The notes beneath the pieces were generated by a model that did no database searches, was not told where the DNA came from, and was given only the letters and a program-made list of their open reading frames with translations. This document shows positions 18,084 to 57,700 of a DNA stretch of 64,000 nt, piece by piece (positions within the stretch are counted from its first letter, which is position 1; each line of letters begins with the position of its first letter). Source of the DNA: Lytechinus pictus (Eukaryota). The stretch spans positions 19,284,001 through 19,348,000 of the forward strand of contig NC_087245.1 in assembly GCF_037042905.1 (NCBI RefSeq), given 5' to 3'. A program made the position numbers and the translations under genes.

Positions 18084-18271
18084 CTACTTTGAGAATTTGG
18101 CCATCCGGTCAGCCAATGAACTGCCTCCTTTTTTAGGGGGAGGGGCTACTGATGGTTTAGGAGCGGCTGATGGTTTAGGGGTGGGGCCTTTTCCTGCTTG
18201 ATCTTTGCTGGGCGCACTGTCCTTCACAACTGGCGGTTTGTCGGTGCTAGAGGACGGTTCTGGCGGGGACT
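18084..18271 (-). CDS. Terminal coding exon: Pro/Lys/Ser-rich tail
   Basis: SPPEPSSSTDKPPVVKDSAPSKDQAGKGPTPKPSAAPKPSVAPPPKKGGSSLADRMAKFSK*; TTTTTCTTCCAG acceptor in phase 1. Confidence 0.82.
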
Positions 18272-19140: not shown

Positions 19141-19172
<32 letters not shown>

Positions 19173-19266
19173 AAAGAAATGGATGAAGAGAACAATGGTA
19201 GGCGTTCTCTTCATCCATTTCTTTACAATATTTAAATAAAAAGAGTTGCCAAAGCTGTTGTACATG

Positions 19267-19312
<46 letters not shown>

Positions 19313-22300
19313 TATATATATAGTGCATACAAAAAAGTCCAAATAAAAGTTATTCTTAACTACAAACATAATCTTTTGTTCATAAAGGGATTAAGGGACT
19401 ATTGGGAACTTGGTTGGGGTCTCCATACTAGTAAGAACACAATGTGAACGCATAGCGACTATGTGAAAATTTTCCAATTAATTGTAGTGGCTTAATTTCA
19501 ATGGAACATTCTTATGAAGCCATTATGTGTTCATAGTGTGTAACATCATGATTTTTTCTGTATACCTACTAGGGTACTGAATAAGCATTCTTTGGAATAC
19601 AAAAAAGAGGGAACAAATTTCTACACTCATCTTAAAAAGAATAATAGGGTAAAAATATCAACCAATATTTGCAAAGCAGGCTATTTTTTTCTCTTCTTCT
19701 TAAACTGTACCACACAGGAAATTTATCATAGTTAGGTACGGAATTGTCATTGAAAACTCAAATAATGAATATCAATAAAATAAACCTGTATGATGTAGTA
19801 AGGCTGGAAATGGAAGATGCAATATGACATAATGTGATAATAAAGCAATGCTGGGGAATAATAAAAAAATTAAAGTAAATAAATGTGCTCATGTGGTCAA
19901 AGTATTGGAGGTCATTTGCAAAGGTCATCATTTAGGGGAACCCCATCACAGACAGTGCAAAAGAACACTAGTAATTGGCTGCTTCTTAAGGGCCGTCTGC
20001 ACCATCCCGAGTTTTCAAATTAGCGCGCTATTTCTGATCCGGCAAATTATCCCGATCTGAAAAATCTCGAGATAGTTGGCGGTGCAGACGCAATTATCGC
20101 GCTAGTTCGTAGGATTAATCTCGAGATTGCAATCCCAAGTCAACTCGGGTTTATTTGCAAAATAGCGCGCTATTTTACGAATTATCCCGCTAATTCGTCG
20201 GTGCAGACGCACTCGAGATTGGACTCGGGGTAATTTATTCATGACGTCAGTCCATAATGCAATTCGCGTTCCACTTCCGCCTTGGTCAAAACATAAACAC
20301 GTGCGGAAGTCAACTTTATACATGCGAATAGCGTTCATAAGCAACGATGGTGTCCCACCAGTGAATGGATTTTGGGAGAGACCAGACCGAAGGGGGAGGC
20401 GCTCATCGACGATGGTCATATTCAATAACAACACTGACAGCAGTGTTGTCTTCCTTCGCAAAATGTGAGCAAATAGCATTTCTTTCCTCCTTTTCTCCCC
20501 CTCTCTCTCTCTGTCGTTGCCTCCTACTCCGCCATCATATTTAACGAAGAATACATCACTTCTTCACTCGCTGAGCTGAGAGGATTGTTGCATAACACCG
20601 GTTGAATTCGGCGAAAGTGCTAGTGAAAGGAGTACATTGCTTGCATATCGCGGGAAGTTATTCAAAAGCGCGGGCCGTTGAAACTCCAAGATCCGAAAGT
20701 GCGCATGCTCGTAATATCGGGCTTGTTGCCTCGCTCGAGCAGGAATCGCTCTTCGTGGGATGGTGCAGACGGGGTTTCTTGAATCTCGAGATTAATCGCG
20801 AAGAGGGCTGATCGGGCTAAAATCTCGAGATTGAGCAAACTCGGGATGGTGCAGCACCGCCTTTAGTGACTTTAATGTCTTAAAACATCTCCAACAAACT
20901 TTCTGGCCAATGGCATATTATCCGTAGTCAAAGATTCTGAACTCATTTCGTTGTACATGTATTCAAAAGGTTTATTAGATAATCAACTTATGAGCAATTC
21001 CACAAAGTTTGTACATCTGCCCTCTGTGTACAGGACCTTCGAATGAAAAAGTGTAATGCTCTTAAATTTTCATGGCTTGAGTGTTTTATGAAGCGAAGTG
21101 AAAATTGAGAAAAGTGGATGTCGGACGTACAAAGAAAGTTGATTATTCTATTGCCTTTACATAAGTATTAATGTGGAGCAATAGACTATAGCTATCAACT
21201 ACTTGAGGAGTATGTGCCGGTCATCCATTGAATACTAAAGAGATTCAAGATATCTTCCACAAATTCAATCAGTTATTAATTTGTTTCACAACTTGTCCTC
21301 TTGTGACACCTAACTCCTTTATGAATATATGTAAATAAAGAAAAAAAAATAAGGTGTTAATAGGAATTGCTACATGCAAAAACATAGTGCAGTGCAGTAT
21401 GAACAAATGTGAAAATAAGCAATGAAAATGTGGAATAAAATAAAAATACTTTTGCTGTCGTCACATCCGTGGAACTGACTCCAGAATGACAAAACATATC
21501 AGTTTGCTAACTATGACAGACCATTGGTCAGTTTTGAGTCAGTTTTCACTGATGTGACGGTAGCATTACGAAAAATGATGGGAATGGTGTTAAAGAATGG
21601 ACTAAATATGGGAGGTAGGTATGACGATTTAGCAATGAAAATGCAGGATTGGTAAATGTCTAGCTAAGCAAAGCGACCAACATACCTTGTATTAGGATTC
21701 TGTACAAAATTAATCTGTATCAAAATAATGCCACAAATATATACAAAAATGAAAATTGCAGGATGATTTTCTAATATATTCTCTCCTTTTTTTTGAAATC
21801 GGCTAATTTGATTTGAGTTACAGAAAAGTGGTTTGGCCGACAAATATTTTTAACGTGGTTGTTTTCAAATAAATGACTTAAATATCATGTAATGTTTAAA
21901 CAACAAATGGTTCCAAATATAGTCATTAATTTAAAGTAAATTTTAGGTAAATATCGGCAAAATGCCATGTGTTCCGAACTCCAATTAGTTTTGTTACATG
22001 CACCAAATTAAATAAGTGATAATCCAGAATTGCATATTTCGATAGAGAGATACACCTTATCAGTTTACCATTCTTAAAAGATGTTTTATAGATTAATATG
22101 TGCAACTTTCTATACATCTACGTATATAATAATTTGCATTGATGCAAAGCGTACTGGAAGACCAGACGATAGTTCCAGTTTATCTTCCATTTAATTCATG
22201 CTGCTTTTCTAAATCTATCAGTGCAAAGCGAGAGCAAGAAAAATGTCTAAGCTCTTTCATCTACCTGACTCTGTTATAACGGCGGGATCTGAGATTTGAG

Positions 22301-25300
22301 TTGGAGGGGACCAGCCGGCTTCGTTTTCAGCCGAGACACGGTAAACGTACTGAACGCCGGTTTTTACGCCCTTGACTTCAAAGGACGTTTTACCAACATT
22401 GCCGACTTCAGTCCAAGCTGTTTCGCCAGCTTTGCGGGCATCAACCTAGCAACAGAATGATGGGGAAGGAATGAAAGGAAGTGGGGGGTGATTATAGCAT
22501 GCTACGAGACAGGTTACATCACTGATGTTATCATTTCTGTAACGAACTTTAAAACCTAAACATTTATCCTTCTGTATAAAAATTATAACATAGGACAAAC
22601 AATTTGTTGATTATTAACAATATTGTTATTTACATCAAGGAAAAACGACATGTAAAAGACAAAATTCAAGAAGGACCCTTATGATTGTGAAGAAAGGGAA
22701 AAGCATCCATATCATATGTTCAAAACGATGACAAAGATGGTAGTTTTATATGACAGAATAGACAGACATGAAATTAAAATCCAAATTAATTTGACTGTTT
22801 TCTTTTTTAATATGAACATTACAGAATCAAATGGAAAATGATAGTGATTGGAGACACTGCATTATCCTGATTACTTGTCATACTTATGGTAAAAGAAAAT
22901 TAATTCAGTTAATTATATTTTTAATACCCACCTTGTAGTTATAAATGGGACTTCCCCCATCTTCTGCTGGTGTTTCCCACGTGATCTTGAAAGAGGACTT
23001 GGACGCTTGTTCCACTTTAGGTTTACCAGCAGGTGCCTTGGGAACGACCACTTTAGCTGTAAAGATATATAATTATGACAGTTTATGATGATCAATGTAC
23101 CACATGAAACATAGTTGTGTTTTAATGGGGGAATAAACCAGTGGTGTGTTGGCTCAGTTGGTAGAGCGTCTGTCTCACAACCAGGAGGTCGGGTGTTCAA
23201 ACCCCGGCCGGGTCAGACCAAAAGACGTTAGAAGATAAAAGTTGCTGCTACCTTGTTTGGCTTCAACAATTTAAGGGATTGAGCCTTGTCGATCTGGCAC
23301 TGCACAGCGGCTGCCGGGCCCAGCAAATTTTCAGAGTATTTTATTTTCATGTCTATTTCGAACAATAAAATATGGATTTTCTTTTCATTTTCATAATCTT
23401 GGTCTTGATTCATTGAGTTTTATAAATAGCATGGTTTAAGCTAAGGACTGCGATATAATTTGAAATTTTCAAATGCTACCAAATTCTTTTTAGATAGGAC
23501 CCTGGAGATAGAATCCATGACATTTGTTCATGCCAAATCTGCACTTGACGCCAAATATGAAACCTAATATCAAACCCTAACAATGCATATTCAGAGAAAT
23601 AAAAGCAAGAGCGATTGACACAGGAGCAAATTTCAGTCATCTAGTACTGACCTGCAACCATGAGTTCTCCTGATGTTGCAGCCGTTCCTGAAGAGTTGGT
23701 TGCCTCACAGCGGTAGATACCAGAGTCCTCGGGGAAAGCCTCAGAGATGGTGAGACAGCAGGTACCATTGTTGTCAGTTGTGATAACCACAAACTTGTCT
23801 GACTCAATTTCCTTGTTGTGGACGAACCACTTGACTGTTGGCAAGGGAACACCTTGGACATGGCATTCAAGGACGACTTTGTCCTCTTCCCAGGCGACCT
23901 GAAAGGTTTTTAAACAAGTTTGTGGAGGTCATTAGTATATTTGTTTATCAAGATAAAGTTTGACATTCACAGTAGCATCATTATGACCGACACCACTATG
24001 ATACAGCATTCATTGTTTGAATCCCCCCCAAAAAAAAAATAATTAAATCTTCTTTTAGTAGAATAAAAGCCTTTAGTTGGTTTATCCAGCAATTGTCAAT
24101 TTTAATACCATATGGTTATTTTGTAAACCCTGTTAACTGAACGTTGAACTTGATTTCTTTTATATTTCATGTCCACACAATTATTACATTTTGTTTTTAT
24201 TTTTTAGAAACACAATTGTGTTCCACTTTTCAATTTAATGAACAAATCAATTATTTAAACACTAAATTACAGACCTCTTCTTGAAGACCTCTGATGAACT
24301 TTGGTGGACTTCCTTCTTGTGAATCGGTGTCTGATCCAGAAACACCCGGAGTTGATTCACTGAAAATAAACATTAAAAAACAGAAAAATATGTGATTTCT
24401 TGAATGAAACAATGCTGAAAATAAGATACATCCTTGCAAATGATCTTTCCTCTTAAAGTATAGCTATTCACCCTAACGTATTATTGATCTTCTCATATCA
24501 AATCTTTCATTTCAGTCGTAATCCTTACAACTCTGGAGAATAGTTGGTGCTCTAAAGTACCAAAAAAATCATTGTTGAATCATGTGGTAAGGTGAAAGAC
24601 GATGACAACTTTAAAAAATAACAGTATTTAGCTGACGATTCTACATTTGTTTGAATTTTATACTTCATACCTAATTACATTTAATAAAAAGATATTTGTT
24701 CCTTTCATATGAAAATCAATGAAAACAAGTGAGAGTTGTGTTGCTTTGGTGAAATACAACTAAATGACTTATAGCACACCAAAATCTTGTGTTAACGGAT
24801 ATCTGTAAGCACTAAAACTAGTGCAGTTTGTATCTACACAAACAATTAATCTACTGAGATATGAGTGCTAACCCGTCTTTAGGTCCCTTGCCAGCAGAGC
24901 CTTGAGGTGCGGTTGAAGATGAAGGTTCACCAGAAGGTGCAGAAGCTGACTTAGTGGACTCAGCAGAATCTCGTGCTGCAGCACTACTGTGCGTTGTGCA
25001 AAGAGTGAAAGTGAGAAATACAAGCTAATAGCTTAAGATACTGAGCAGCAGGTGCGTGGCATTATAATCACATTAATATTGTACAGATGTAATTTATCGC
25101 TTTTAATAGGAATACATGTGTAAATTAGTAACTTTGTTTTCCCTGTATTAAGTATTCAAATAAAGAAGACATTACTAAAGGTAGACAGCAATAAAAATGT
25201 ATGTAGAATACAAAAGGAATTGCAGTGATACCAATTGCTAAAGAATTACAATAAAAGAATCCCACAAAAACAAAAGAAAGTCAGTGATTGCCTAGTGTTT

Positions 25301-28300
25301 GGTGACTACATTTGAAAAAGTATTTAAGTTATTGAAAACTGGAATGACTACCCTGTTAAAACAATGATACGCTATGCAAGAACACATTGAATATGATAAG
25401 TATAACATCCTAACAACTTAACACTAACATTCTACTCTGAACAAGATATAACTCATCCTTTTCCAAAGTAAAATAAGTTTTGGGAGAAAGAAACCTACCT
25501 GACATCAGAAGCAGTGATGCCCTTATCACCAGCACCAGTAGGTAGGATATCGAGTGTGAACTCACAAACCACCTCGCCTTCACTGTTCTTGGCTGTGCAG
25601 GTGTATGGGCCAGCATCGGTTGAGCGTGCATTCTGGATCTCAATGGTGTGTGTGAATTTGTCACTTCTGATCGAGAAGCGACCACCATCAGAGATCGGGC
25701 GACCATCCTTTGACCATGTCACTGCAGAGGAAAATGATAGGGATTAATCATAAGTAATGGAGTAATTATTCTGGGAACATTCTGTGGCCAATAAGGTGAT
25801 TCATTTTACTTGGATGATAGCTGCAGTATGAAGTATGAATTGTAATAGACATGGTGGAGGCAGTGGCATTGTCCTCGTTTGCATATTAGCAGCTTCGAAA
25901 TATGAGGTGTGTCCACTTAACTTAACTGGCAACATAAGAGAGTCGAAATATGAGGTGTGTCCATTTAACTTAACTGGCAATGTAAAAGAGTTGAAATATG
26001 AAGTGTAAATGGATGTAGATTGCAGAAGTAGGATATTTGATGAGAAGTTTACTTCACTTGGGCAGTGGAAGTTTCAAAAAGTTAGGCTTTGAAATGGTTG
26101 TTTGTTACATGGTGGCAGCGGTGGGATGTATGGTGTGAAAATTGTCTCTGATTTACACTATGTTACTAGCAAAGGGTCGAAACTTAACCAAGAACGTTAT
26201 ATATCTTACCTGAAGGAACTGGGTCACCGTCAACATCACATGTGAAGATTGCAGTTGTGCCTTCCTCAACCATCTGTGACTGGGGTTCTTCAAAGAACTC
26301 TGGTGGGATGTGATCCTCGTCAATGGTGGCTGTGCAGGGGATGTCTGTACTCAGACTTACATCCATGCTCTGTGAGATACTGATGCTCACACTTGGCTCC
26401 TCTGTAAAATAAAATTGAATTACTTTAACTCAGTTGATATTTTTTTATCTAAACGAGAAAGTTACTCAATGTAAATAACAAAATCATTACTAAATGGAAA
26501 TTATAAACCATGATTCGTTAAAAAAAACATTAAAAAATCAAAATAATTTGTGAATCAATTAAAACAAATGGAGGAATCTTATTAGAAGCAATAATAATTT
26601 TGTCATGCTCCTGCAGAAATGCAGGAACCCAAGCTCACCTGGAGGAGGTCAGAATACTTTTTTAAATGATCTTTCCTTTTGATTTTTTGTGGCCATACCG
26701 TACGAAAGAAAAAAAAATAGGATTCTAAGAAAAATAAAGTAAAAATAATTTCAATATGATAATTCTTTTGTAAGGTATCGCTCTCACCATTGACAGTAAG
26801 CATGGCACTGCATTCAGCTTCTCCGTGGTCATTCAGGGCTTCACATGTGTACTTTCCACCGTCTTCGGGGAAGATTTCTGCAATCTCTAGTTGGTAAATG
26901 TTGCCACGGCTCACATAACGGAACTCCTTGCAGTCCACAATGTCCTGTCCATTTCGGAGCCAGCCGACGTCCATTGGACGAGAGCCTATGAGGAACAAAA
27001 GAAAGAGTAGCTCTGATTATGAGACTGGATAGCATTACGAACTATTAGTTTTATCTGTTTCATTTAATAATGAATTTGAACGTCCTAAGAGAAATATATT
27101 ATGCATCTATGGTATAAATATCATGATTGTACCATACATCCATAGAAAGTTATCGTTCCTGCATCTTATTTTCAGATGGTTTATCAACCTTCTGGCCTTC
27201 GCAAAGCTCCAATAACTTTTTCCTAACTTGACCTGAACTCTTGATAGTTTAATAACTCTATTGCCTTTCTACCCAAAGCCACTGTATTTTCATACTGATT
27301 GTTGACGTTAAAAGAGTGCCAACATTAATGTCACCCTGTAATGAAAACGGGACAAAAACAAGAGCAGAGATCTGCTCCAATATTCATCAAAATGATCGTC
27401 TATAATTTGCTCTGAGCAGATCCGATTAGATTTTGATATCGCTCTTTGTAATAGAAAATGTATTCTCCTGAACGGGAGATTGCAATATCTTTTAAAGAAT
27501 AGATTTAATTTAAAAAGGAAACAAATAACTCTTTACTTTAAAGTCCTATAACATACCGGTAATCTCCGCCTCCAGGACAACCCGTTCTCCATCACGAATA
27601 GACATGTCTTGAAACTTCCTGACAAAGGTTGGTGGTCCGGCCTCCTCTGGTTCTTCTGGTGGAACAAATTCTGGTTCCTCCTCCTCATCGTCAGGTCTAA
27701 CACCCGGGGCGCTAGGTGCGTATGTACGTATTGCAAATTCATCATCGTCGACCTCGTAACCACCATACTCCCTGCTGTACCTCTCATCCATTTTATATGG
27801 ACTAGTTTCCAATCGTGCCGAGTAATAGTCTTCATCATCACGGTAGACACGACGCGGTATCCTCGTCGGACCCGTAACGGGTCGATCTCGCATCACAGGG
27901 CGGTAAGGCTCAGTGTATGGTGTGCGATCAATTGTTGTTGGCGTCGATGGTCGATCGCGGCTTGGTACACGCAAGCTATCTTGCCAAGCGGAGAAAGAGG
28001 TCAGCTTGGGAAGAGGTCTGCCACCCGATCGCGTGAAGGTTGCCGATGTGCGAGTAACATCCAAATAACCAGGACCAGCATCCCGCGTTGTTCTTCTTGT
28101 TTCCTGAATTTCTGAATATTTCAAGGGTCTGTCAGACCGAGCTTGATAGTATTCTACACCAGAGTCTTCTACTCCACGTCTGCTAGAAAGACGTTTTGAT
28201 GTTGCGTAGCTGTGGTATGGAGACGACGGTCTGTATGTTGGTGATTCAGGGCGGTAGGCTGGTGACGGTGAACGGTACGTCGGGGAGGATGGTCTGTAAG

Positions 28301-31300
28301 TTCCCATTGGTGACGACGGGCGGTAGGTCGATGTTGAATACGGGCGTGATGGCGAATAGCGCGACGACGGTGATAGCCCCGTTGGTGACGTGGGACTGTA
28401 AGAACGGCTGCGTGACGGCGCAAGAACGTCGGTTCTTGGTGTGTAATAATCCTTGCGTTGTGTGCGCTTTGATTCGTAGGAGTAAGTCGGTGAAAGGCTT
28501 GATGGGTCGCGTATGTGCTTTGAACGCTTTTGATGAGTGCGGCTACTCTCGGTTTGAACATCGAGGTAACTGCGAGGTGTCCGCGGCGCCTTTCGGGTCT
28601 TATGACGACCACGCCCAACATCTGCACCTCTATCTAGTAAGGCTTCCCCTGGTTTATAAATTATGAGAAAATTGACCAAAAAGGAGAATTTTGTTATTTG
28701 AAAGTCCGAAGTACGTTTATGCTTTTTAGGCTAATAAAAATTGTTTTCAGAGATATTCAAACTATGATGACTCTAAAAATAAATACATTCAAACAAATAT
28801 GAATTGGAAATGGGTACAATTACGCTCTTTCTTCATTCACATCTATTTTCATAACTGTATCAACAATTATGCCGTTTCTAAAAATCTATCTCCGTTCTAA
28901 TCAATCGAAATAAATGGATGGAACCATGCAGAATATTCTAAACAAGTATTACAGGCCTATGTAATGTTTACAATAGATTGTTTTGTAAATTGCCTATTAT
29001 TAAAAGGGAAATATAAATACATAAATACCGTAATGACATTATTTACCTGGAATCACGTCAACCTCGGCAGAGCAGGTGGCCTTGCCAGCTGGTGACGAAG
29101 CAATCGCTTGATAGCGGCCTGCGTCGGTTGGTACGACACGGTAGATGACCAAGGATTGTAATCCGTTAGGGGCCCTTTCGACGTACATGTGGTCAGATTG
29201 CACAATTTCAACGCTGTCCTTCATCCTGTAGCGTGAGAGTAAAATACAAAGATACTCAAATATAAATAACATGTATCTTCTAAAAGAGCTAGATCTATGT
29301 GGTAAGATTTTGCAGGAAAATAGTTGAACAATATGCATTTAAAAAAATCATATTTTTTAAAAAACAAATATGAAATCACGAATGACTAAATGAAATGGCT
29401 ACCTATTATTCTCACGTCAGAAGCGACTCTTTAGAAATAAAGTGTTTATATATGTCAGAAATCATATGAAAGTAGCCACTATTTCGAATTTGATATCTAT
29501 GAATATATGATTAAACTAACGTCATCACGCAAGAGTATAAATCAAATTTTACACAAAGACGTTTTAATACTTCGAGTTTATTTACCAATAATATTACTCA
29601 AGATATTTTTATGGAAAACAATGCGACAGTTAACCAAGAGAAACTATGGTTGAATCATTATTGAACCATAACTGCATCGGAAGCACTAGGGTTTGAATAA
29701 AAGCCATGATAATCATTTCTATATAAAAATAATCATCCGATCGAGGTAGTCTAACTCGACCATGATATAGTAAAAGGGTATCTAGCAGGGATATTAATTC
29801 GTTGGCAAGTATTTGAGCTCCAGATGGCGACCGACTGAGCTTAAAGTCAGGAGCATAAGGTCAATTACTCCCACAAGAATACTATAATAGAGTTGCTAGG
29901 AAAATATGTGTTGAATTAATAAACGTTTCCATCAGGGATTCCATAACCTACCAGGTGACCTTTGGTTCCGGCCATCCCATGACTTGGATCTCAAGTCGGA
30001 CCTTCCTGCCTTCTTTAGCACGGAATCTCCGCAGCGGCTTGGCGAATGATGGCCGGATGTAATCCTCCGTTTCGTTGTGAGGAAGTCCTACAAGAGAAAA
30101 ATTATACGAGTTTTAAGTGACTTTAAAATTGTATAATTGAATTATTTCATGATTAATACATGACGCATCGGGTAGTTGGAAAAACAAAGTGAATCTGGGA
30201 GAAGTGCAAATTGTTATTATTTATTTATAGGGGACATCCATAAAAACAAATTCATTCATTTATGATAATTGCACCTTAAAACAAGGAATTAAGACTTAGA
30301 GAATAATGTACTTTTTTCATTCGATTCTTATCTGCTCTTCCGACAATTCAGTACAAATATCAATAGCAAATGTAAAATTTCGAGAACCTGTTTACATTTC
30401 ATCGTCATAATACGTGTTAATTTGACGTCACACTTACTTTCTTCGACAACCAGCTCGCAAGCAGATGTCGCTTCACCTTCTGGGTTAGTTGCGGTGCACC
30501 TGAAAGTCCCGGTGTCGCTCCTGCTGGCGCTTCGGATCTCCACCATGGCCACGCCCCATCGATAGGTGATACTGTAGTATGCCCCATCGTAGATTGGTAT
30601 ACCGTTCTTGCTCCAAGCGATCTTCGGCTTTGGTGTCCCTTGCACATTGCAGCTGATGCGCGCCGGTTCGCCGTTGTATACGACCTTTCGGCGGAGCGGG
30701 AGACTGAAGAACGGTTGTTGTACGAGGCGACGACTGTGAACTGGTTCAATCTTAGCACGGGATACGACACGCTCGTCTTCACTAGACTCCCTGCAATAGA
30801 TAATAAAGCATAGCGGGAGTGGAATGATTTATGCTATCTGACGTAGATGGTAAAACAGTCATGTCAGATTCATAAGTATCGCCAGCAGAAATACGATCTT
30901 TATTTTTGTTAATTTTTAAAACAACAATAGGTTCTTAAGAAAAATATACGAATATATATTTTTCTTTAATATTTCAATTATTATATCAGAATAAAACTCG
31001 TTTGGATGATATTGATATGAACATTCTAAAGCTACAGAAACAATCTAGAACATGCATGGATTTCAAAGGGCGAAAAAACATCATGACATTTTAAAATAAA
31101 GTAAACCAGTAAATGAAGCATGCAGACTAAAAAAAGCATGCACAAAACCAATTCTTTAAACCATTACTTTCCTAAATATTCTATAGAATTCGATCTGGGC
31201 AAGATGAAAAGGTTTCATTCCATCATCTCCTTGATAAGTTCTAATATGGTTGTGTGATATGTAATGAATTTTCACTAATCTCGTTTTATAGTTTGCCTTC

Positions 31301-40300: not shown

Positions 40301-43300
40301 TTAAAGGGGGAAATAATATATACTACTTACATTGAGAGTGCGGATCCTCCCTCACTGTCCACCCCAAGGCCTGCATAGGAAGAAGAAGAATATGGCTCAT
40401 TACGTTGATAGTCAAGTTTGTGGGATTTACGATAGTTCTCTCGGATCTGACGTAGTCGTTCATCGATGGGGACTTCGTTCTTTCTCGAGGTCGCTGGTGA
40501 TCGTGGTGGTGTTGGCGTCGATGCGATTGTTGATGCGCCTGTTGTTGCACTAAATCTGGCCATGTGCCTCGCGTAAGGTCCTTTAACACGCTGACCCTCA
40601 CGGTGAGCTCGATAAGCCCGGTGAGGCGCCAGAGGAGAGAAATAAGGAACGTCGCTATCGCTTTCGCTCTCATCATCGTAGTCGTATGAATAGGTATCCG
40701 CATAGCTTGCGCGATACGAGGGCGTGATACGGGATACATCGCTACTGCTGTACGATCGGTATCCCAATCCGCTAGAATACGATGGTTTGGAGAGATACGA
40801 CGACGACAACACAGGTTCTTCGCTGCGAGAACGATATGCCCTCGATGGCGACAACGAATCAACGCTCCCATAGCGACCTAGAGATGAGTAACCGGACGAT
40901 GACGAACTTGTTGTACTCGAGGGAACATGGCGAGGTAGACTATCATATGATGAACTTAATTTCTTGTTGAGTGGTGCTAGGTATTTATTTGATATTTCTC
41001 GGGTGGTGGCATCTAAACTAGAACGGCGCTTACTTCTTTCCAAGATACTAGAGCTTGTCGTAGGAATACTTTTGGGTAAAGAACGTTCATAGGTTTCAGG
41101 CGGTGGCTCATACTCTGGGTTATACCGGCTAATAAGGGTATTTCTAGGCTCATCAAATGTACCTGTTGCCTTTCTCATATTACGATCCGATTTCCAGCGA
41201 ATTTGATCCTCGAGAGCAGTGAGAAGGTCTTTGACCCCTCTATCACTATCAGAAACCGGATCAGAGTCGAATTCATACTCCTCGCTGTCTGTATCCACCT
41301 CGATGTCGGGGACGTCGACAAGGAGATCATAGGGATCGGTTTCATGATCACGGTAAAGATATGAGTTAATCATGTCCTTGACCGTGGGACTGCTAGGCCG
41401 ATAAGAACTCCTTGATGCTGATGCTGCTGATCGCGTATCCATCGAGGTGTTCACCCTGGTGCCTGTAGTACCTCGGGATCGATGCTGCGGTCTCTGACTA
41501 TCCTCCTCTTCTTCTTCTTCGGGGGCGTCGCGCGGAACAGACTCAATCTCACTAGCAATGCTTGGAGGATCCTCCTCTGTGATTGGGTCTGTTGTTTCCA
41601 TGGTAATCTCGTCATCAATCGACATCTCGCGCTCAAGAGGGATGCTATCAGCTCTTGCCGCGGAAGACATCGTCGCTAACCCTTCACCCGAGGAGAAGCT
41701 ACCGACTGGGGTGAGGATATCGGAGTTACCCCTTCCACTTCGATTATCCGCCGGATAATCCCCCTCTTCTGTAATAACAAGTTCATCCTCATAGCCACAA
41801 CCAGATGTATTTAAGACATCTTCGTCTAGTTTTAGTTCCCCGATCTCCTCTTCTCCCAAGACTTCGCCGTTCACATGTCCGTCCTCCATATTTACCAAAT
41901 TTTGTTTACAAAATAATTCTTGAACGTAAATGCAGAAAGCATTGAAATTTGTATATTTCGATAAGAAAAGCACTGAAGAAATTCCTTGTACTATTCCAGA
42001 AATTGATCAAACAATCACGACAGAAAAATTCAGGAAAACACAAATGGGGTATCACGGCAATGTCTATCTATTCACCACTGCAAAATTACGCGAGTATCCT
42101 TGAAGAGTTCTAAAAATGACGTTAAAAACGTAAAATCTACGACGTTATTATTTCAATGAGCTTTAGAAATCAATTAGCTTGTTCTTCCGATGCAGGCCCG
42201 ATAGTTTCCCCCCACTCCGACCCGGCCGCTCTCACGCTACGGGTAGGTAGCACAGGCAAAACCACTACACAGTAGCGATTCTTTCCAAGCCAAGTATAGT
42301 CGTCACCTTACGATGAATGTAGTGGTGGATATTAGTATAGCGCGAGGCCGGGGGTCGGGTGGCTAAAGAAAGGAAAGAGAGTGAGAGACGCGAGTCCACT
42401 TGCTCACACCACACGTCATACTACAAGCGAGAAAACGATGTAAGCCGATCACATGAAATAGCAGTCATGCCAGTTGGATGGTGAAATCTGAAACCCAAGA
42501 GGGGCAGCGAAGACTGATGACACCCCCTTTGCCAGGCCAGCCATCCAGCGCAGCCTATACGAACAGCCGTTAGCTCACTTGAAAATGTCACCAGAGTCAG
42601 GATGCCTAAGCCTGGGGTGTCCTGTCGTGCCTACAGTGCAGGGTAAAAGCAGGGGCGAGGGTCGACACGGCGAGGCCAGCCCGAGCAAAACGCTGCCTTA
42701 TTTGGTTCGTCCAATTGGTGCCTGTTAAAGTCCGCAGATGGATCCACCGAAGCGGCAGTATACATCTACACTGAGCGCCGTATGATCTGGGGTTCATTAC
42801 CGGTTACAGGCCTCTACTCAAGAACCAAGCCACCAGCCTCGGCTTACATCACTTAAAACCGCGGGTCAGTCATTGGATTGTGCAAATTCGAACTTTGAAA
42901 CATTGCAACAATTCTGTTTGCTGTACTGTTATTGGAATGTAAAACGAATTATTTCATCCATTCGAATAAGATCCAGTCGTATAGTAATATCATCAAGGTG
43001 AAAACGTTTCATGAAAAATTATACTTGATTTTAATCAAGTAGTGGGACATACTACATTTACCAGCCGAGGTCACTGATGTATTTCAATCACTGCCAAAAA
43101 TCATTAAAACTCTCGTGGGCGCAATCCGTAACGACTGACGGAATAACCAATGACAAACACCTCACTCATCTCTTCATTCACACTCTCTTCCAATCACACA
43201 CTTAAACCCTGTTTGCATGGAGACACTTATCTTAAAATACAATAAGCGTGGGTTGTTTCTGTGTTTGATAGTCAACAATGTAAACGGGTACTCAGATAAA

Positions 43301-48690: not shown

Positions 48691-48721
<31 letters not shown>

Positions 48722-51700
48722 CTCCAACCACCTCCATAAAAAAATATTTAAAATTCAAAGATAGAGTCGATACTGATTTTCTATCTTATACACAATTAAT
48801 ATTACAGGGCATTGGTGAGTAATTTTGTTCTCCAATATTGTAATGCTTCAAAATTTGTGAAGGTCAAGTCCAGGTTTGGAAATGAAATTAAGAATTAAAT
48901 GTATCTATAAATGAAATTAAAGCTGTAAATATTTAATTATTTCTTCAATATGAAATAAAATTTGAAAGCGTAAAATTAGATGAAATTAAATACTAAAAAG
49001 GTATCAGTGTCACTGTAACTGTCTGGTATCACTTAAAATCTCGGATAAACATTGCAATACTTCGATATATTGAAATCACAATAGGTTCACAATACATTTT
49101 TTATTCCGTTTTTTAATGATAATAACAAATGCACACATCGAATACAATAATGCAAGATCGACAGCTTTGTCAAAATGCCCATTATCATTGAATCATATAG
49201 AAAGACTAATAGAAGTGACATTGGTGACTTACGTTCAACCCTGACATAGGAGTCACATGAGATTCTTCCAAGGAGATTGGAGGCAAGACAGGTGTAGGTT
49301 CCAGCATCTTGAAGGAATGCCTCTTGGATGATGAGGCTACATGTTTCATCATCCTCACCAAACTCGATGGAGTAATGCTGGCCATCAAAGATCTCCTTGT
49401 GGTCCTTGAACCTGGGTATTGGAATAATAAATCAATATTAGTCATTGAAGAAATCCCTTTTTCCCGTTTTGATACTAATGCAATAGATTTTTCTGTTACT
49501 ATAGAACACTTTCAATTGTCATTTTTTATTACTATTGTTACTATACTTTTTCACAGAATATTACATATATACAACAAATTTGAATAGTAATACGACGCAC
49601 ATGATATGGTACGACAAATAGAAGTTCACAAATGTCACTGTCAGTAAGCATTTTAATTAAAAAAAGTTTTTCTGAAATTTTAGCCTAATTATTTTTTTGA
49701 AAAATGTCTCATGAAATACACATTGTGAAGTGAAGTGAGTAGTTTGGGTATTAATTCCACTTGGAAAGCGGCACTACATCTCTGTATCAATACATATATT
49801 TTTTATTGACCTTAAGCTAATTCTAAGAGATTAGATATATAATAGAACTTACCATCTGATGTTGGGTTCAGGTACCCCGGTCACCTTGCAGTCAAGTCTT
49901 GCAGCACTACCTTCAACAATGAAGATATCTCTTAGATGGAGGTTGAAATGAGGTCGGCGATAGTCCTTGAACTTTGTCAAGAATTGTTCTGCAGATGAAT
50001 AATTTCACAAAACAAATCATTCAATGTTTCATTTAAAATATATGGATATATTTTCAATTAAATCAATCAAATTAAAGTATGTAAAGCAGTTTCCTCGAAA
50101 ATGGCAATCAACTGATTGGCGCTGGAATAAACAGAACCTACATTCCCAATACCATTTTTTAAACTACACATTTTGTCAATCACATGGTAAGACCACAGAT
50201 ACAAAAAGAGAAAATGGTGGTCATCCAAGTCATATGAAATAAATATAATACATTGCTTTAGCCAGGAAAATAATTCATGGTTGAATAAGGAATCTTACCA
50301 TTCACGTCCAGTCTGCACTTGGTGGCGATACTTCCATACTGGTTGGTGATCTCTGCAGTGTACTGACCCTTATCTTTCTCAGTAGTTCCGTCAATCTCCA
50401 GTGTGTGGACTCCATCCTCCTCGTAAAAGTGGTAGTGTGGACCGGCCTTTAATGGCTTGTCATCGTGATACCACTTAACCTTGGGTTCAGGCACACCTGG
50501 GATTTCGGCGACTGTTAAAAGAAAGGTTTATTTTCAAAAGTTAAGTCTACTCTTATTTAGATGATAGATGATATTGTGATATGGAAAAAACAAAATCTGA
50601 AGGTTATTCTTTGAAATAATTCTTTGATAACTTGTTCATTACGATAAAAGCATTAGTTAAAAACATCTAATATCTGTTAGATTTCCCTTTCTGAACTGAG
50701 GCAAAAAGAACAAGTCTGTATTTAACAAAGATCAATCGAAGTCAGAAATTATAAATCATAAAGGAAATGAATTGTAAATAATGAAAATATCTCTCCACAA
50801 ACTAAATGAGTTGTTTTCATACTTTCCTTACGCTTGGCACAAGCCTTGTTAGAAAGTTTCATTGTTTGTGAAACAAAATAATAAACGCCAGGAAGATTCA
50901 GGTTTTTTCAGACTCTTCACATGATGGATATCAACTCACCTTGGAAAGACAGGGGCATGATGAAGTCAAAGCCACATTCTTGGTCTTCAAGAGGTCTGAT
51001 CAACTGTGGAGCCTTGTCACTTCCTGGTGCAGCAGCTTGGGCTGCTCTCAGCTTCTTGGCACGTTCACCAAGAGGTATCCTAATATGGCAGAATAAGAGA
51101 TTACCGTTAGTTATTGATATACGAAATTTCCTCCATGAAGTGTTAATTGGTTAACACGTGTGGCATTATCTACAACTATCTTGAAATTACCACAAGATAT
51201 TGAAACTCTGATTTAATTTGATATCATTTGTAACCATAAAGACAAGATTTTACCTCCTTTTTAAACACAAAAAACAATTAACCACAAATGTACAACCATT
51301 TTTTACGAGGTTAAAAATACACATTTCGTTTTGTACTTTTGTTATCAAGAGTAGATATGATAATAGTAGAAAATAGAAGATAAGTTATATAAATGAAAAT
51401 TACTTACTTCTTTCTCTTCATGTCGAGACCTCTACGTTCTCCTCTCTTGTCCAGCTCTTGTGCATCAAGCACTGTACAAAAAAATAACAGTAGGAAAATT
51501 AATATCTTTTCACATTAAGTTCATCAGGTACGACTCTATAGTAATCATTAAAAAGCAAATACAGAAGGAATTGCTCCCAACTGTATCTATACAAAATAAA
51601 TGCATATTTTTTCACATGCACAAGGAACCCTAAACAAGAACTCAACAATGACCATTTATTGATTTCACAATGGTACCGAAGGTTAAATAGAAGTATATTT

Positions 51701-54700
51701 CAAACATCAATAGCTCTGAAAGAGTTCATTCACTTACACTGCACATCAAGATCAGCTGATGAGCTGGCATGTCCGTAAGAGTTGACTGCTTTGCACGTGT
51801 ACTCCGCAATATCATCAAACTCGGAATCTTGAACAATGAGGGTGTACTTGCGGTCATCATAGAGCATCTTGTACTTGATACTGATAGTGATTTCCTTCTT
51901 GCCTTTGAACCAGGTGATGAGAGGTTCAGAGAGGGCAGAGACCTCACAGTCAAAGCGACCAGCATTACCTTCGATCGCCATGGTGTCTTCCAAGGGTTTG
52001 ATGAACTTTGGTGCCGCATCTCGGACATCTGTAAGTATATACAAACAATGCATATTCACCATGATTACGATATTCATACAATGATATTTATCTACAACTC
52101 ATTGCAGAAACAAGAAGCATTTACATGTACCACAATTCGTTTATTCAGTAAGACAATATAATAAAATAAGATGAGATGAAAACATAAGCTTTACTTTCAA
52201 TTTGCAATATAAATTTTAAATTATTAAATCTTTTGTTTTTACAACAACAACCCCCCCCAAAAAATTATATAAAAAGAAATCAAATTCTTATTAATGTTAA
52301 CCATATCGAATTAAAGAATACACTAGCCAGTGTAAAGCACATTTAAAAAAAAATATGAAGCACTGTCTTCCGTAAATGAAAATCTTCACATACCCATGTA
52401 GCATTCTCTTTCCATCAGAGGTTTCCCACGGTACATCTTGTGCATCTCACGAAGAGCGCCACCATGGGCAAGATGTCCAATGGCATTGATAGTTTTACCA
52501 GCACCCTGGTGAGAAGACATGGTGAAAAGAAGAAACATAATCATATTTGGTATTATTGATATCAAAGGGTACATCTCTGACAATGAAAGACGATTTCATA
52601 TAAAATATAGTAAAAAATAAACCTTGTAGACCATCATAAATCGAGAATGATTTTCCTTGAAATCTTAATGGCTCAAAGAATATGTAGAACTATAATAGCA
52701 TTCTTTAAAAAAGCTTTGATTTTTGACAGAATATAGCAAGAATAAATATGAAAAAAAAAGCAAAGATAAAGAAGGAAAACATACCTTTGGCTTATTTTTG
52801 TCATGGTACCTGCGGAGTCTGCTGTTGTCAAGACGACGAGCACGACGTCTAGCCATTTCATCTGTCTCCATCTAAAATTTTGAAAATAAAGAGGAAAATT
52901 TGTATATAAGATATATACCATGTAGGCAATATAATAGAAAAGTATTAATTCATAACAGAATAGTTGCAGTTAAAATAACAAATGGATTGTGTACACTGAG
53001 TTTCACTATGTTCATCTACCTGTTGTCAAATGCATCGTTTTCATTCTTACTGTCAAATCATGCCTTATTTATTTACATTATAAAGAAGATTGTGCAGACA
53101 TTTCCAAATTCCGGAATAAATCTAAAGCGTAAATGAGATGAATGGGGGAAACTCTCTTTAATTGGTGGCAACGGTGGGATAACTCTAGATAAATCTACCC
53201 AATACATACCTGGAGCCATGGATGGTCAAGAGCTTCTTGAATGGTCATTCTTCCTCTGCAAACATCAAAGCAAACAATATTTTAGAATTGTACATATATA
53301 AAGATGAAGAGTCTATTGTGATGTAAAGAGAAGATACGGACGTAAGCACCCCATTTCACCTTTTCCTTTCTCTCTTCTCTGTCACACACTGCTTCCTTCA
53401 ATTATTTCATTTTCATACCCCATTTTCTTTTTTCTTTCAATGTAGCTTACTCGACCTTCTTTACCTTTCCTGTCACTATCAAGAGATCGCTCTACAATAT
53501 TGACAACAATGAAAACAATATTTCCATTCTGTGATTTGTAGAGCAATATCATACAGAGACCAAAAGGTGCTACACAAATATTCGAGCATAACTCTAAGTC
53601 ACAGATAACTCTTTGTGACACACACACCCTCAGTTCTATTACCAACCGTGGGACAAATGTTCACACTATGTGCACGATCAATGAAACTGATATTCATGGC
53701 AAGCTGTTGGAGAATTGTTACTCGAGGTAAACAGTTGATTAAAATTCGCAGATTGGAATTTGGTATTATGACAACTTTCACTGAGAGACAGGTTTTTATT
53801 GAAAGCATTTACTGTGAATTGGCCAAGGAATATTTACAATAAGATATAGTATTCCTTTTAAAATTAGAACATTAACTGAAATGTTACTTGGTATTGAACC
53901 CTCAGAAGGATAAGAAATTGTTCAACATACTCTTTATCCTTGATGATGATCCTCTCGATCCAGTCTAGACCTTCATCTGTGATGTCAGCGAATGCTTCCT
54001 CGTCAAATTCCCATTCTCCTATGGCGACGTTCTTAAGGGTCTCACGATCTGTCTCTCCCTCAAACGGTGATATACCACTCAACCTGAAAAGATATTGAGA
54101 AATAGTTGTATACTGTTTACCCCTTTGGAGATAGTTAATCAGAAATGACAGAAATTTCAAATACTATTTATGCGTAATCATTACTTTCACCTTTCGCACC
54201 AAAATCTTTATCTGGACTTATGAAATGAAAGTGTTTTTCAAGAAATTTTTGCATACAGTTTATGTCGTTATGATGTTAACTGACTAGTTTACTACTCATT
54301 CGAAGGTGAGAATGGATAAGTGAATTCTAGGTAAATCAATGTAATTAGTTTCTACTCACATAAGGTATGCCATCACACCCAGCGCCCACATGTCTGTCGG
54401 GAGTCCAATGGGTTCATGGGTCACGACCTCAGGCGCGATAAAATCAGGGGTGCCGAACATGACCTTGACAGGTTTGTCTGGGTCAAGCTCCATGGTTAGG
54501 CCGAAATCAATGATCTTGATGTCGTCGCTATTCCGAGCGCACAACATGACGTTCTCAGGCTACAGGAATGGAAAATAATTTTACAGAATTTAAGGTATTA
54601 CGTGACTGGATAATTTTGTATTGAAAAAAAATATAATCTTACTTGCATGCAAATTAGATGAACATATGATAAATTTATTTCCCCTTATTCAACTTACATT

Positions 54701-57700
54701 CCCTGATAAAGCAGTATCTTGAACAGCACAAGGACATGTATAAGTATAACAAAATTCTTACTTGAAATCTAGATCTTCTGTTGCCAATTCTAGACCAGAA
54801 TATATGACTTATACTACTGATGAAGTAAAAATGTAAATATCTTTCTGAAACTATTCCCTTGTATTATTTTGCATCTGCTGAAATTTATCAAAATAGTACC
54901 ATTTGATTTTTTATAAAGATTTATTATATAAATGATGTTATTGAAACAAGTTATATAGCACAGGGAAACTGACCTTGAGATCTAGATGGACCATGTGCCT
55001 CTCATGCATGTGTTTCACACCCTCACAGATCTGTTTCATGTAGAAGACTACTTCAGGTTCTGTAAGAATGTGGTTCTCATCAACCAGACGGTCAAACAGT
55101 TCTCCTCCAGACAAACTGAAAACAAGTAACAATAAATAGAACTTTGCTGTATTAAAAGAATTGGTCATCATAGTTATGTTTTTAAAAATGGGTGAATATC
55201 CAAATGAAAGATTGATTAGTTTTCTTAGGGAAAAATATTTGCATCTAATGAATTTTCTGCCTGTAAAATTTATGTTTATAAAATATAATGATTGACAGAA
55301 AACTTTACCCTTGTGACAAAATGGTGGCTTACTGGAGTATGCTATGAGCATTTTACTAAATATGTATTTGGCAACATGAATTAGGAAAAAAAAAATTTTA
55401 AAACAAATTATAATGCTTACAATTCAAGGATCATGATGATCTCTTCGTTGGTCTCAAAGACCTCATGAAGGTTGAGAAGACGACGATGGTGGAGTTTCTT
55501 CATGACCTCAATCTCTCGCCTGACCAGATCACGCTCTTTGCCATAGCAACGCATGAATTTGGCTGCCCATGTCTTCTGGGTCTTTTTCTCAATGGCTCGG
55601 TAGACAATACCATATGATCCTCTGTAGAGAAATGGATAAAGGGCTTTTGTTTTAAGTGAAGAAAATATGCAACACTGTGTGCTTTAGATTAATGAATAAG
55701 ATCAACAGTGGGTAATAAAATGTGTCAACAATGACATACTTCAATCACTGATTAAAAGGGTTTGTATACATATGAACATATACTGTAGCTCATTTACTAC
55801 TAGTTTATTTTAGAAATACAACAAATATTATTTATCATCAAAGATTGTCAAATGAAATATCTGAAGTAAAAAATATTTCAAAATTGACATTTCCTATATT
55901 TCCTTATGACTCTTAATTAATGAGTATATCATTACTTCTTTAACAATTTTGATCATTAATTTCAATATAACACAAGAAATATCCAAATTGTTTCATACCT
56001 TCCAAGTTCTTCCAGAATCTGGTAGTAATCATAAATGGAACCTGTCCTGTTGACAAACGGATGAGGACCTCTGTCAAAGTCAACAAGTGAGTCATAGAAG
56101 CGACGCTTTCCTTCATAGTCCTCGAACTGCGGTCTTCCAGGCTTGGATGCTAATATGGTGGACATAAAAGGTTGAAATATATTTTTAAACTAATTATGCT
56201 ACTAGATGTGAATTAATACTTGTATTTAAATAAGACAAAATAACTGTATAAACATATTGCAGGAATGGTATTTTTGTATTGACTTTATTGGAAAGTAACT
56301 AATGAAAAAAATGGTGCAATTCTCTATAAATAACCTTCTAAAGGGGTCGCTTTTAAGGAATTCTATACCTAAGAGTTATACACATGAAACAAGTTACTGT
56401 TAAAGTATTTGATATCAAAAGCATACTAAACAGGACAAATTATTTGAATCGTAATTCAAAATAAACTTTGAAGTATGCCTTTTGATTTTTTGATGTTGAG
56501 GAAGCTTACTTACATTTTGTGCAGACTACAGCGGTAGCTTCACAAGGCTCGCTGGCTCCATACATGTTGAAGGCAGTAATCCTGAACTGATACTGTGTAT
56601 CTGGACGGAGGTTGATAACAGTGTGCTGGGTGTTCTTGGAGCTGATGACCCTGGCCCAGGTGAGGACACCGACCTCTCGTTTCTCCACCATGTACGTAGT
56701 GATGTTCGAACCTCCATCGTAGATGGGTGGGTTCCAGGACAGGCGGATGGCTTCTGAGGTGATCTCCAGGCACTCAAGGTTGCGAGGAGGATCAGGGTGT
56801 CCTAAAAGAGATAATTACAATCAAATTATTTACCAACTGAAAGATAACTAGAGAAAAGAAAATGTTCTTGCAAATGCAACTAATTACTAAGATAAGATAC
56901 ATTTCCTTGCTGAATAGATATTACTGGATTCTCAGCAACCTACGGCTTCTGTCAAACAAGTTTAAACGCATAGTTAGAATGACATACTAATTGCAATTAA
57001 TCTTCAATACTATAATCACGTAAAATCAGTAAGTGCCGTTTACTTACTTAGAATATTGACTTGAATGGAGCAGGTATCATGACCCAGTTCATTAGAAGCC
57101 ACCACGCTGTACTTTCCAGCATCTTCCTTGGTGATTCCACGTATGATGAGTGTGGTATCATGAGGTGTATTCTTGATCTCAAAGCGACCTCCGTCCACCA
57201 CATCCACACCATCTCTGTCCCACCTGAGGCTCGGTCTGGGCACGCCACTGAAGGGTACCTTGAGCATGATGTATTCGCCAAGGAGACAGTGGATCGGTGT
57301 GCGGAGTCTGGGTGGTAGGCTAAGCTTGGGCATGACTAATTACATTGAAAAAAGAGATACAGGGAATTAATTAGAGCTGAATTTATCCATCCACTGCTGA
57401 AAGTAGCTACTTTTAGATAATTTCTCTAGGAGCCAGTGCAGAAAAAGTTGCAATTAAATGCAACTCGACTTTCAAATAATTTATCAAATAATTTAAAGTA
57501 CCCATTTAGGACTATCATTTATATACAAAACTTTCTGCAATAGACCAATTGCCTTTCCTTCCTCAGCTAGTCTAGTCCAGGACACGGGTATCATGTATTT
57601 TCATTATATCATCATCATTTCATCTTCTTCTTAACTCTCTCTTCAAGGTTTAATCTAAATTAACATGAATTTAACTTAAAATTTTTTTCAACTGTTTTTA

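What the first reader, a model, noticed from the sequence alone, without database searches (positions are those of the whole stretch)
40331..42880. Possible telokin-like internal transcription unit inside a giant kinase gene
Seen: the 1.6-kb exon has an AT-rich, UTR-like first ~28 codons, an ATG (41889, AATATGG) where composition becomes coding-like, and an upstream CpG-rich region with a CArG box. It is also the only large exon bridging phase 1 (49233) to phase 2 (30790). Known: vertebrate MYLK makes telokin from an SRF/CArG-driven intronic promoter downstream of the kinase exons, and TTN has an internal Cronos promoter. Inference: a dual-use exon yields both the full-length protein and a kinase-less C-terminal scaffold (disordered head, five Ig, heptads, Fn3).
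Basis: partly seen in the sequence, partly recalled or inferred. Interest (0 to 1): 0.72.

Follow-up and report, generated by a model that had tools for sequence, protein, structure and literature searches.

The report
Kinase-less twitchin from an internal start
In a twitchin-like giant muscle kinase gene, likely of a sea urchin, RNA shows a second transcript with a long unspliced leading exon inside the intron after the kinase that shares only its last 40 bases with the full-length mRNA, so it likely comes from its own promoter and would make a kinase-less protein of about 1,600 residues with a conserved, predicted-disordered 506-residue head.

Summary
Transcript contigs of two organisms run unspliced from the donor at 40331 through 41972 and 41918 to 42414-42848, and raw reads fade out by about 43130. 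The big exon is therefore a long first exon. The kinase-side mRNA does not enter at 41972 or 41918. It splices 49233 to 40370 and uses only a 40-nt micro-exon, which supplies the phase 1 to phase 2 bridge. The 506 codons from ATG 41889 are private to the short form. They are conserved (61-65%) from the same Met in Diadema RefSeq proteins and an unnamed ORF. The '28 codons' are UTR: transcripts carry an in-frame stop there. The host gene is twitchin-like, and the short form keeps the likely orthologues of twitchin's later tail Ig domains. The CArG box exists but is weak evidence; no start site was mapped and no protein was shown. Verdict: a new variant of a known theme (telokin, Cronos, myorod), not found in my literature searches.

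The parts
40331..42637 (-). Long first exon of the short transcript (at least 2.3 kb; organism B contig reaches 42848, raw reads about 43050-43130)
   Evidence: Ungapped contigs X15 rec 11 and X16 rec 2 (40341-42637), X1 rec 5 (to 42414), X3 recs 5 and 7; depth 0 in 43181-43280 and 43273-44606
41890..42637 (-). 5' leader (UTR), at least 748 nt, depleted of upstream ATGs, with no unusual fold
   Evidence: 5 ATG against 12.5 expected, P 0.0045; 0 of 3 control stretches depleted; folding z -0.08
41926..41928 (-).
   Evidence: Variant at 41926 in X15, X1 and X22; effect computed
41894..41901 (-). Site of an apparent insertion of at least 93 nt in organism B, just upstream of the ATG
   Evidence: Loose ends in X3, X22 and X23; four short pieces of them are absent from the window; no DNA run of B was laid
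41887..41889 (-). Likely start codon of the short form
   Evidence: Met 1 is invariant in 4 of 4 aligned proteins; Diadema RefSeq models start there
40371..41889 (-). Head-coding region private to the short form: 506 aa, acidic first half (net -41), Ser/Arg/Tyr-rich second half (+10), predicted mostly disordered with a few helices
   Evidence: AlphaFold mean pLDDT 46.9, 360 of 519 residues under 50; no Pfam family
41017..41028 (-). Conserved RRxS motif (Ser291), candidate protein kinase A site (consensus recalled)
   Evidence: R288, R289 and S291 invariant in 4 of 4 sequences; phosphorylation untested
40371..40390 (-). Polypyrimidine tract and AG acceptor of the full-length form, lying inside coding sequence of the short form
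   Evidence: 13.5 bits, best of 44; A506-G507 across the acceptor invariant in 4 of 4
40331..40370 (-). 40-nt micro-exon shared by both forms; phase 1 in, phase 2 out
   Evidence: Loose end behind 40370 in X3 and X16 equals window 49233-49262; loose end before 40330 matches the exon at 30790
42696..42705 (.). Perfect CArG box; 59-68 nt upstream of the organism A contig end, but inside the stretch covered by organism B reads
   Evidence: function and conservation not tested
49233..49411 (-). Last kinase-side exon (second half of the third post-kinase Ig); its phase 1 donor joins 40370
   Evidence: Contigs X1 rec 6, X15 rec 12, X16 rec 3, X3 rec 6
30438..30790 (-). First fully shared exon (Ig1 of the short form)
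   Evidence: I-set E 3e-20; joined to 40331 in X22 (7 reads), X23 (7 reads), X3 and X16
27557..28648 (-). Low-complexity exon with YxPSSPT-type heptad repeats between Ig2 and Ig3
   Evidence: 5 matches in this exon; similar repeats in Diadema
18084..30087 (-). Remaining predicted shared exons: Ig2-Ig5, Fn3, Pro/Lys-rich end, stop at 18086-18084; a 111-nt in-frame exon at 24983-24873 may be included
53210..56149 (-). Exons of the twitchin-like kinase, present only in the full-length form
   Evidence: Pkinase; PDB twitchin and titin top hits; tree

Best explanation
Transcript contigs run unspliced from at least 42637 down to the donor at 40331, while kinase-side contigs join that exon only at an internal acceptor at 40370, so this twitchin-like gene likely has a second promoter in the intron after its third post-kinase Ig domain that would yield a kinase-less protein with its own 506-residue head. 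How it works: (1) Shown: two routes merge on one 40-nt exon end and one donor. (2) Shown: the long route is 49233 to 40370-40331 to 30790 and keeps the frame. (3) Inferred: the short route starts near 42.64 kb in organism A and 42.85-43.1 kb in organism B, and carries a leader of 0.75-1.2 kb. (4) Inferred from conservation: translation starts at ATG 41889 and gives 1585 aa (176 kDa), or 1622 aa with the 111-nt exon: head, Ig1-Ig2, heptad-rich spacer, Ig3-Ig5, Fn3. (5) Hypothesis: the shared Ig tail anchors the short form at the filament sites used by the giant protein's C-terminus, and the disordered head, with its conserved RRxS site, replaces the kinase and long array as a phosphorylation-controlled binding arm, as myorod's head does on the myosin rod (about 30%). 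(6) Hypothesis: SRF acts through the CArG box at 42696-42705 (about 35%). The confidence given covers steps 1-4.
For: Unspliced passage across both proposed acceptors in 4 of 4 contig sets (X1, X15, X16, X3), with raw-read depth on both sides in X22 and X23. Joint 49233-40370 shown by letters in 2 of 2 contig sets and by a 29-letter overhang in 2 of 2. These upstream contigs run through 49233 without a break. X23's 7 reads across the 40331 donor have a median overhang of 41 nt on 150-nt reads, so some single reads likely reach head-specific sequence. Intron depth is 0 just upstream, which argues against intron retention. The first-exon route is 38-63% of the two merging contig depths (rough). 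The leader is ATG-depleted, carries an in-frame stop variant, and has an insertion in organism B. ORF differences in X3 (30 of 30 sites) give 15 synonymous and 11 non-synonymous codons, against 23% synonymous by chance, P 0.0002. Diadema RefSeq XP_071495768.1, XP_071495762.1, XP_071495776.1 and XP_072181067.1 begin at the matching Met and run to the shared tail; P0001 was compared in full. ENA ORF P0083 has the same start and ends at the same donor position. Scallop twitchin-like post-kinase Igs 2, 4 and 5 best match Ig1, Ig3 and Ig4 of the short form in order, and its Ig 1 matches the Ig upstream of the promoter.
Against: No capped start was mapped: table 6 lists no sharp start, libraries look unstranded, depth is about 5, and contigs cannot show a start. 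The 5' ends differ (42414, 42637, 42848, about 43130). Neither raw-read run lists the 49233-40370 joint (0 of 2; threshold 3 reads). X1 and X3 are only guessed to be RNA and X15 and X16 have no recorded kind, although all four hold spliced joints. The joints table was swamped by repeats (348 rows not shown) and 1 loose-end row was not shown, so a minor other junction is not excluded. Scallop Ig 3 matches Ig5 (158) slightly better than Ig1 (148), out of order, and Ig2 has no partner. The kinase tree support of 93/94 is below the starred level. No protein-level evidence. The CArG box lies inside the transcribed stretch in organism B.
Confidence: 0.86

Rival explanations
1. The short transcript is real, but its promoter lies further upstream in the 43.2-49.2 kb intron, with a small non-coding first exon spliced to an acceptor at 42.6-43.1 kb that low 5' coverage hides. 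The CArG region would then be leader, not promoter.
For: 5' ends are ragged and low in depth. Some low contig depth exists at 46.6-48.6 kb, probably repeats.
Against: The 4 first-exon contigs end fully aligned with no overhang. No spliced loose end is listed above 41946; the one at 43043 reads as a 2-nt insertion. Depth is 0 in 43273-44606.
Confidence: 0.07
2. Two separate genes lie in tandem: a stand-alone Ig/Fn3 gene starting at about 42.7 kb, as the Diadema RefSeq models suggest, and an upstream twitchin gene whose transcripts read through and splice into it.
For: All 4 members of the Diadema cluster are 1588-1691 aa 'uncharacterized' proteins starting at the head. No giant orthologue holding this tail was found, but only proteins up to 5000 aa were searched.
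Against: All 4 kinase-side contigs run from 49233 into 40370 with no other terminal exon, in two organisms, at depths close to the first-exon route. The tail Igs match the ancestral twitchin tail.
Confidence: 0.05
3. One reading: the full-length mRNA enters the 1.6-kb exon at 41972 or 41918, so the head is part of both proteins.
For: Both joins keep the frame open in the window's own sequence.
Against: Weak acceptors (1.2 and 0.2 bits). No loose end at either place. An in-frame stop variant lies downstream of 41972 in X1, X15 and X22, and an insertion lies downstream of both acceptors in organism B. The observed joint is to 40370. It could survive only as a rare 41918 form.
Confidence: 0.02

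Closest known systems
Telokin (KRP) from vertebrate MYLK
   Same: [quoted passage not shown]
   Different: Telokin is 17 kDa and identical to the MLCK C-terminus. Here the product would be about 176 kDa, a third of it private, and it lacks the first post-kinase Igs. The host is twitchin-like and lacks the MLCK-type calmodulin-binding motif seen in the MLCK-like rows.
Cronos titin (vertebrate TTN internal promoter)
   Same: Start site in the intron 5' of an internal exon, so that exon is 5'-extended, with an in-frame Met upstream of the acceptor (PMC4720518, passages read).
   Different: Cronos adds 7-12 residues and starts upstream of the A-band, so it keeps the kinase. Here the extension is at least 2.27 kb and 506 codons, the shared piece is 40 nt, and the kinase is lost.
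Myorod/catchin of bivalve catch muscle
   Same: A unique, phosphorylated N-terminal domain (156 aa) replaces the catalytic head on the C-terminal part of a contractile protein from the same gene (PMC12040844, passages read).
   Different: Myorod comes from the myosin heavy-chain gene and has a coiled-coil rod. No sequence relation was tested. Function here is untested.
Molluscan twitchin (Mizuhopecten twitchin-like P0060; Mytilus twitchin)
   Same: Colinear Fn-Fn-Ig-Ig-Fn-kinase-Ig block at 39% over 969 aa, kinase 53%, similar regulatory tail, matching post-kinase Igs.
   Different: The tail here has 8 Ig, a heptad-rich spacer and a final Fn3 instead of 5 Ig in P0060. I saw no RRxS in the linker after the first post-kinase Ig, where Mytilus has its D2 site (PMC12040844 section 9). 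My searches found no internal-promoter tail isoform of twitchin.
C. elegans UNC-89 C/D and vertebrate SPEG/APEG-1 short isoforms
   Same: Short isoforms of giant muscle kinase genes (UNC-89 C and D are named in PMC3395652 passages; their internal promoters and APEG-1 are recalled, from no call).
   Different: Obscurin/SPEG-type genes. UNC-89 C/D keep the kinases (recalled).

Membership tests
Twitchin/projectin (host gene) | Ig/Fn3 array ending Ig-Ig-Fn3-linker-kinase-regulatory tail-Ig | tested here: met
   Gene model; colinear with P0060
Twitchin/projectin (host gene) | Kinase closest to twitchin, with intact catalytic motifs | tested here: inconclusive
   Groups with scallop twitchin-like at 93/94 in an 11-row tree, not starred; HxD and DFG intact; PDB top hit is twitchin for one exon and titin for another
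Twitchin/projectin (host gene) | Post-kinase Ig tail matching that of twitchin | tested here: met
   4 of 5 scallop tail Igs have best matches in colinear order, 1 of 5 is out of order
Twitchin/projectin (host gene) | Molluscan D2 PKA site between post-kinase Ig 1 and Ig 2 | tested here: not met
   No RRxS seen by eye in that linker (translation, alignment); a feature of catch twitchins only
Twitchin/projectin (host gene) | Full N-terminal array and total size | not testable with these tools
   The gene runs off the window at 64000 and no genome is held
Telokin | Transcript starting in an intron downstream of the kinase exons | tested here: met
   Unspliced first exon with empty intron upstream; the start base itself is not mapped
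Telokin | Product identical to the C-terminus of the long form | tested here: not met
   506 private residues; the long form enters at 40370
Telokin | Host gene is a calmodulin-regulated MLCK | tested here: not met
   Regulatory tail resembles twitchin, not the MLCK-like rows
Telokin | SRF/CArG-dependent promoter | not testable with these tools
   Box present, chance 3-10%; conservation in organism B could not be read because 35 difference rows were not shown
Telokin | PKA/PKG phosphorylation of the product | not testable with these tools
   Conserved RRxS only
Cronos-type isoform | 5'-extended internal exon with in-frame Met | tested here: met
Cronos-type isoform | Retains A-band array and kinase; short unique N-terminus | tested here: not met
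   Starts downstream of the kinase; 506-aa head
Myorod/catchin-type head swap | Unique N-terminal domain joined to the C-terminal part of the parent protein | tested here: met
   At transcript level; protein not shown
Myorod/catchin-type head swap | Myosin rod; phosphorylation-dependent actin binding of the head | not testable with these tools
   The parent is not myosin, so this is an analogy only; binding untested

The most novel reading that the evidence does not exclude
Sea urchins make, at roughly the level of full-length twitchin mRNA, an unrecognised 176-180 kDa muscle protein built from twitchin's tail. Its conserved disordered head is switched by cAMP-dependent phosphorylation and tunes filament cross-linking or relaxation: an independent echinoderm invention of the telokin/myorod trick, in which the giant form's splice acceptor is held in place as coding sequence of the short form.
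Probability: 0.25. Interest if true: 0.72.

Novelty: new variant of a known kind. Interest (0 to 1): 0.52.

Why it matters
It adds a deuterostome invertebrate case to the pattern that giant muscle kinase genes release their C-termini from internal promoters, and it does so in a form my searches did not find described: a very long coding first exon whose last 40 nt double as a micro-exon of the giant form. It gives a likely identity to a set of 'uncharacterized' Diadema proteins and warns that annotation probably splits this gene. It also offers a directly testable candidate regulator of echinoderm muscle, with head-specific probes, a start codon and one candidate phospho-site. The general principle is known, so the surprise is moderate.

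Tried and rejected
No genome is held for this window, so paralogues and the 5' part of the gene were not examined. The run search listed no holder on record as RNA; I laid 7 of its 24 runs. X19 (raw RNA, organism A, 6% of the run read) gave essentially no depth on the exons, which is no evidence either way. The 20-kb lay was swamped by repeats, so its joints table was of no use. Pfam found nothing on the head or the heptad exon. The ESM Atlas gave only hits under 0.9 for the head. A metagenome scan found 0 relatives among 591 pattern matches, so CArG conservation could not be tested there. Rfam found 0 matches in 30000-50000. The sigma-70 promoter scan does not apply to a eukaryote and was at chance level. 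The leader has no special fold. A search of longer proteins (2959-5000 aa) found no orthologue of the tail, and a near-length search found only Diadema as a close relative, with no sea star or sea cucumber head. Asterias P0065 was considered as an orthologue and rejected: two MLCK-type kinases and no head match. P0084 looks like a frameshifted or partial copy of the head's end from a close relative and was not used further. A 'CpG island' reading was rejected. Earlier scan notes: 3 look-ups, nothing found. PMC3835035 and PMC12198301 (passages, abstract) say nothing on this isoform in what I read. No paper supplements were opened; those of PMC12198301 may list a sea urchin accession for this gene.

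Full report
Setting. The window holds the 3' part of one minus-strand, intron-rich gene. Exons assembled from the sequence give Ig(part)-Ig-Fn-Fn-Ig-Ig-Fn, a kinase with intact catalytic motifs, a regulatory tail, three Ig domains ending at the donor 49233, and then a further tail of five Ig and one Fn3 ending at the stop 18086-18084. The only named close relatives of the finding's ORF are Diadema proteins, so the organism is likely a sea urchin; this is an inference. The kinase block is colinear with a scallop twitchin-like protein (39% over 969 aa) and groups with it at 93/94 in a small tree of 11 rows.

Observation. The open frame, the ATG at 41889, the AT-rich stretch before it, the CArG box at 42696-42705 and the phase mismatch are all there. 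The upstream region is GC-rich but not CpG-enriched (0.73 against 0.71). The CArG box has a 3-10% chance in shuffles, depending on the stretch chosen, and there are 8 in the window.

What RNA shows. I laid 7 of the 24 listed runs. Kinase-side contigs ended 29 letters past 49232 and downstream contigs began 41 letters before 30789. With 31-letter words this predicts an acceptor at 40370. One search tested it on a repeat-free stretch: in X16 (organism A) and X3 (organism B, a close relative by its few differences) the letters hanging off 40370 equal window 49233-49262, and the letters hanging off 40330 match the exon at 30790, also in 7 reads each of X22 and X23. No loose end is listed at 41972 or 41918. 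Raw reads of B cover the head and leader at depth about 5, thin out above 42850 and are gone by 43181. Against this: neither raw run lists the 49233-40370 joint, no sharp start was called, X19 showed essentially no exon depth, and parts of both tables were not shown.

So two routes merge on one donor. The long route uses a 40-nt micro-exon, whose acceptor is the best of 44 in-frame candidates (13.5 bits). The short route is a first exon of at least 2.3 kb. Contig depths put it at 38, 42, 50 and 63% of the merging flow in the four contig sets; contig depth is a poor measure of expression, so this says only that neither route is marginal.

The leader is UTR. It holds 5 ATGs where 12.5 are expected (P 0.0045), while 0 of 3 control stretches are depleted. 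Organism B has an apparent insertion of at least 93 nt seven bases before the ATG. One of the upstream ATGs (41942) is lost in B by the difference listed at 41940.

The head is coding. All 30 ORF differences in X3 fall in 26 codons, 15 of them synonymous, against 23% expected by chance (P 0.0002), and the one deletion is 3 nt. Diadema RefSeq models of 1588-1691 aa and an unnamed ENA ORF start at the matching Met and are 61-65% identical over the head. The ENA ORF also ends at the same donor position, and the Ala-Gly across the hidden acceptor is invariant in 4 of 4 sequences, which suggests, but does not show, that the acceptor is conserved. AlphaFold, on a 4-row alignment, gives 360 of 519 residues under pLDDT 50, with confident helices near 214-242, 421-430 and 475-489; with so shallow an alignment low confidence is only consistent with disorder. 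One RRxS motif (Ser291) is invariant; that this is a PKA consensus is recalled.

One gene or two. All four kinase-side contigs run into 40370 with no other ending. Of the five post-kinase Igs of the scallop protein, the first matches the Ig upstream of the internal start, and the second, fourth and fifth best match Ig1, Ig3 and Ig4 of the short form; the third is out of order. The simplest reading is a promoter that arose inside an ancestral twitchin tail.

Mechanism. Shown: the two splice routes and the unspliced leader. Inferred: an internal promoter near 42.6-43.1 kb and translation from 41889 into 1585 aa (176 kDa, pI 5.2) or 1622 aa. Hypothesis: the Ig tail targets the short form to the same filament sites as the giant's C-terminus, and the head is a phosphorylation-controlled binding arm. 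SRF control is possible: the CArG box sits 59-68 nt above the end shared by the X15 and X16 contigs (one study), but it lies inside transcribed sequence in organism B, and its conservation could not be read.

Comparison. Telokin comes from an intronic CArG-containing promoter, is identical to the MLCK C-terminus and is a PKA/PKG substrate (PMC10533999, PMC9343278; passages). Cronos starts in an intron 110-257 bp before an exon and adds 7-12 residues (PMC4720518; passages). Myorod has a unique 156-aa head on the myosin rod, and Mytilus twitchin has PKA sites D1 and D2 (PMC12040844; passages and section 9). The unit works like these but is a member of none: it fails telokin's identity and host tests and lacks Cronos's kinase.

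Novelty. Ten full-text searches were run. Those on sea urchin or echinoderm twitchin, titin and connectin (20, 31, 43, 54) and on twitchin with internal or alternative promoters (48, 72) showed no description of this isoform in their listings; I read passages of only seven papers, and the library lacks most subscription journals and I opened no supplements. RefSeq already holds the Diadema proteins as 'uncharacterized', so the protein sequence is public while its link to twitchin appears unnoticed. Verdict: real, a new variant of a known kind, interest 0.52.

Noticed in passing
window 18361-18370 and 18414-18423: Two perfect CArG boxes 53 nt apart in the last intron, just upstream of the final coding exon: a possible muscle enhancer or further internal start, as good a candidate on sequence as the box at 42696.
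   Followed up: no
window 27557-28648: YxPSSPT-type heptads that recall the RNA polymerase II CTD repeat (recalled), also in Diadema, whose protein has further short tandem repeats in this spacer; a likely multi-site phosphorylation spacer.
   Followed up: partly
window 32124-32744: Inverted repeat with 142-nt arms (87%) and a nested 56-nt pair; very high read depth shows a high-copy MITE-like element. Further repeats near 31520-31660, 38170-38330 and 45000-45950.
   Followed up: partly
window 24873-24983: 111-nt in-frame exon with a tandem AG acceptor, matched in position by an Ala/Ser-rich linker in Diadema; inclusion not checked with RNA.
   Followed up: partly
   Followed up: partly
window 41894-41901: In X3 the contig below organism B's insertion has depth 18.3 and the one above 8.13: 5' decay, an allele bubble, or a second start inside the insertion.
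   Followed up: no
window 19900-20900: GC- and CpG-rich patch (46% GC, 36 CpG per 500 nt) in the last intron; two of its ORFs have no Pfam match.
   Followed up: partly
window 9046-9595 and 25895-26006: Tandem repeats of period 205 (2.6 copies) and 48 (2.3 copies).
   Followed up: no
P0004 (Diadema XP_071495776.1): An annotated isoform that ends inside the Fn3 domain with a different C-terminus, hinting at alternative 3' ends.
   Followed up: no
P0065 (Asterias amurensis, named 'Obscurin-like'): Has two MLCK-type kinases with calmodulin-binding-like tails, so its name may be off.
   Followed up: partly
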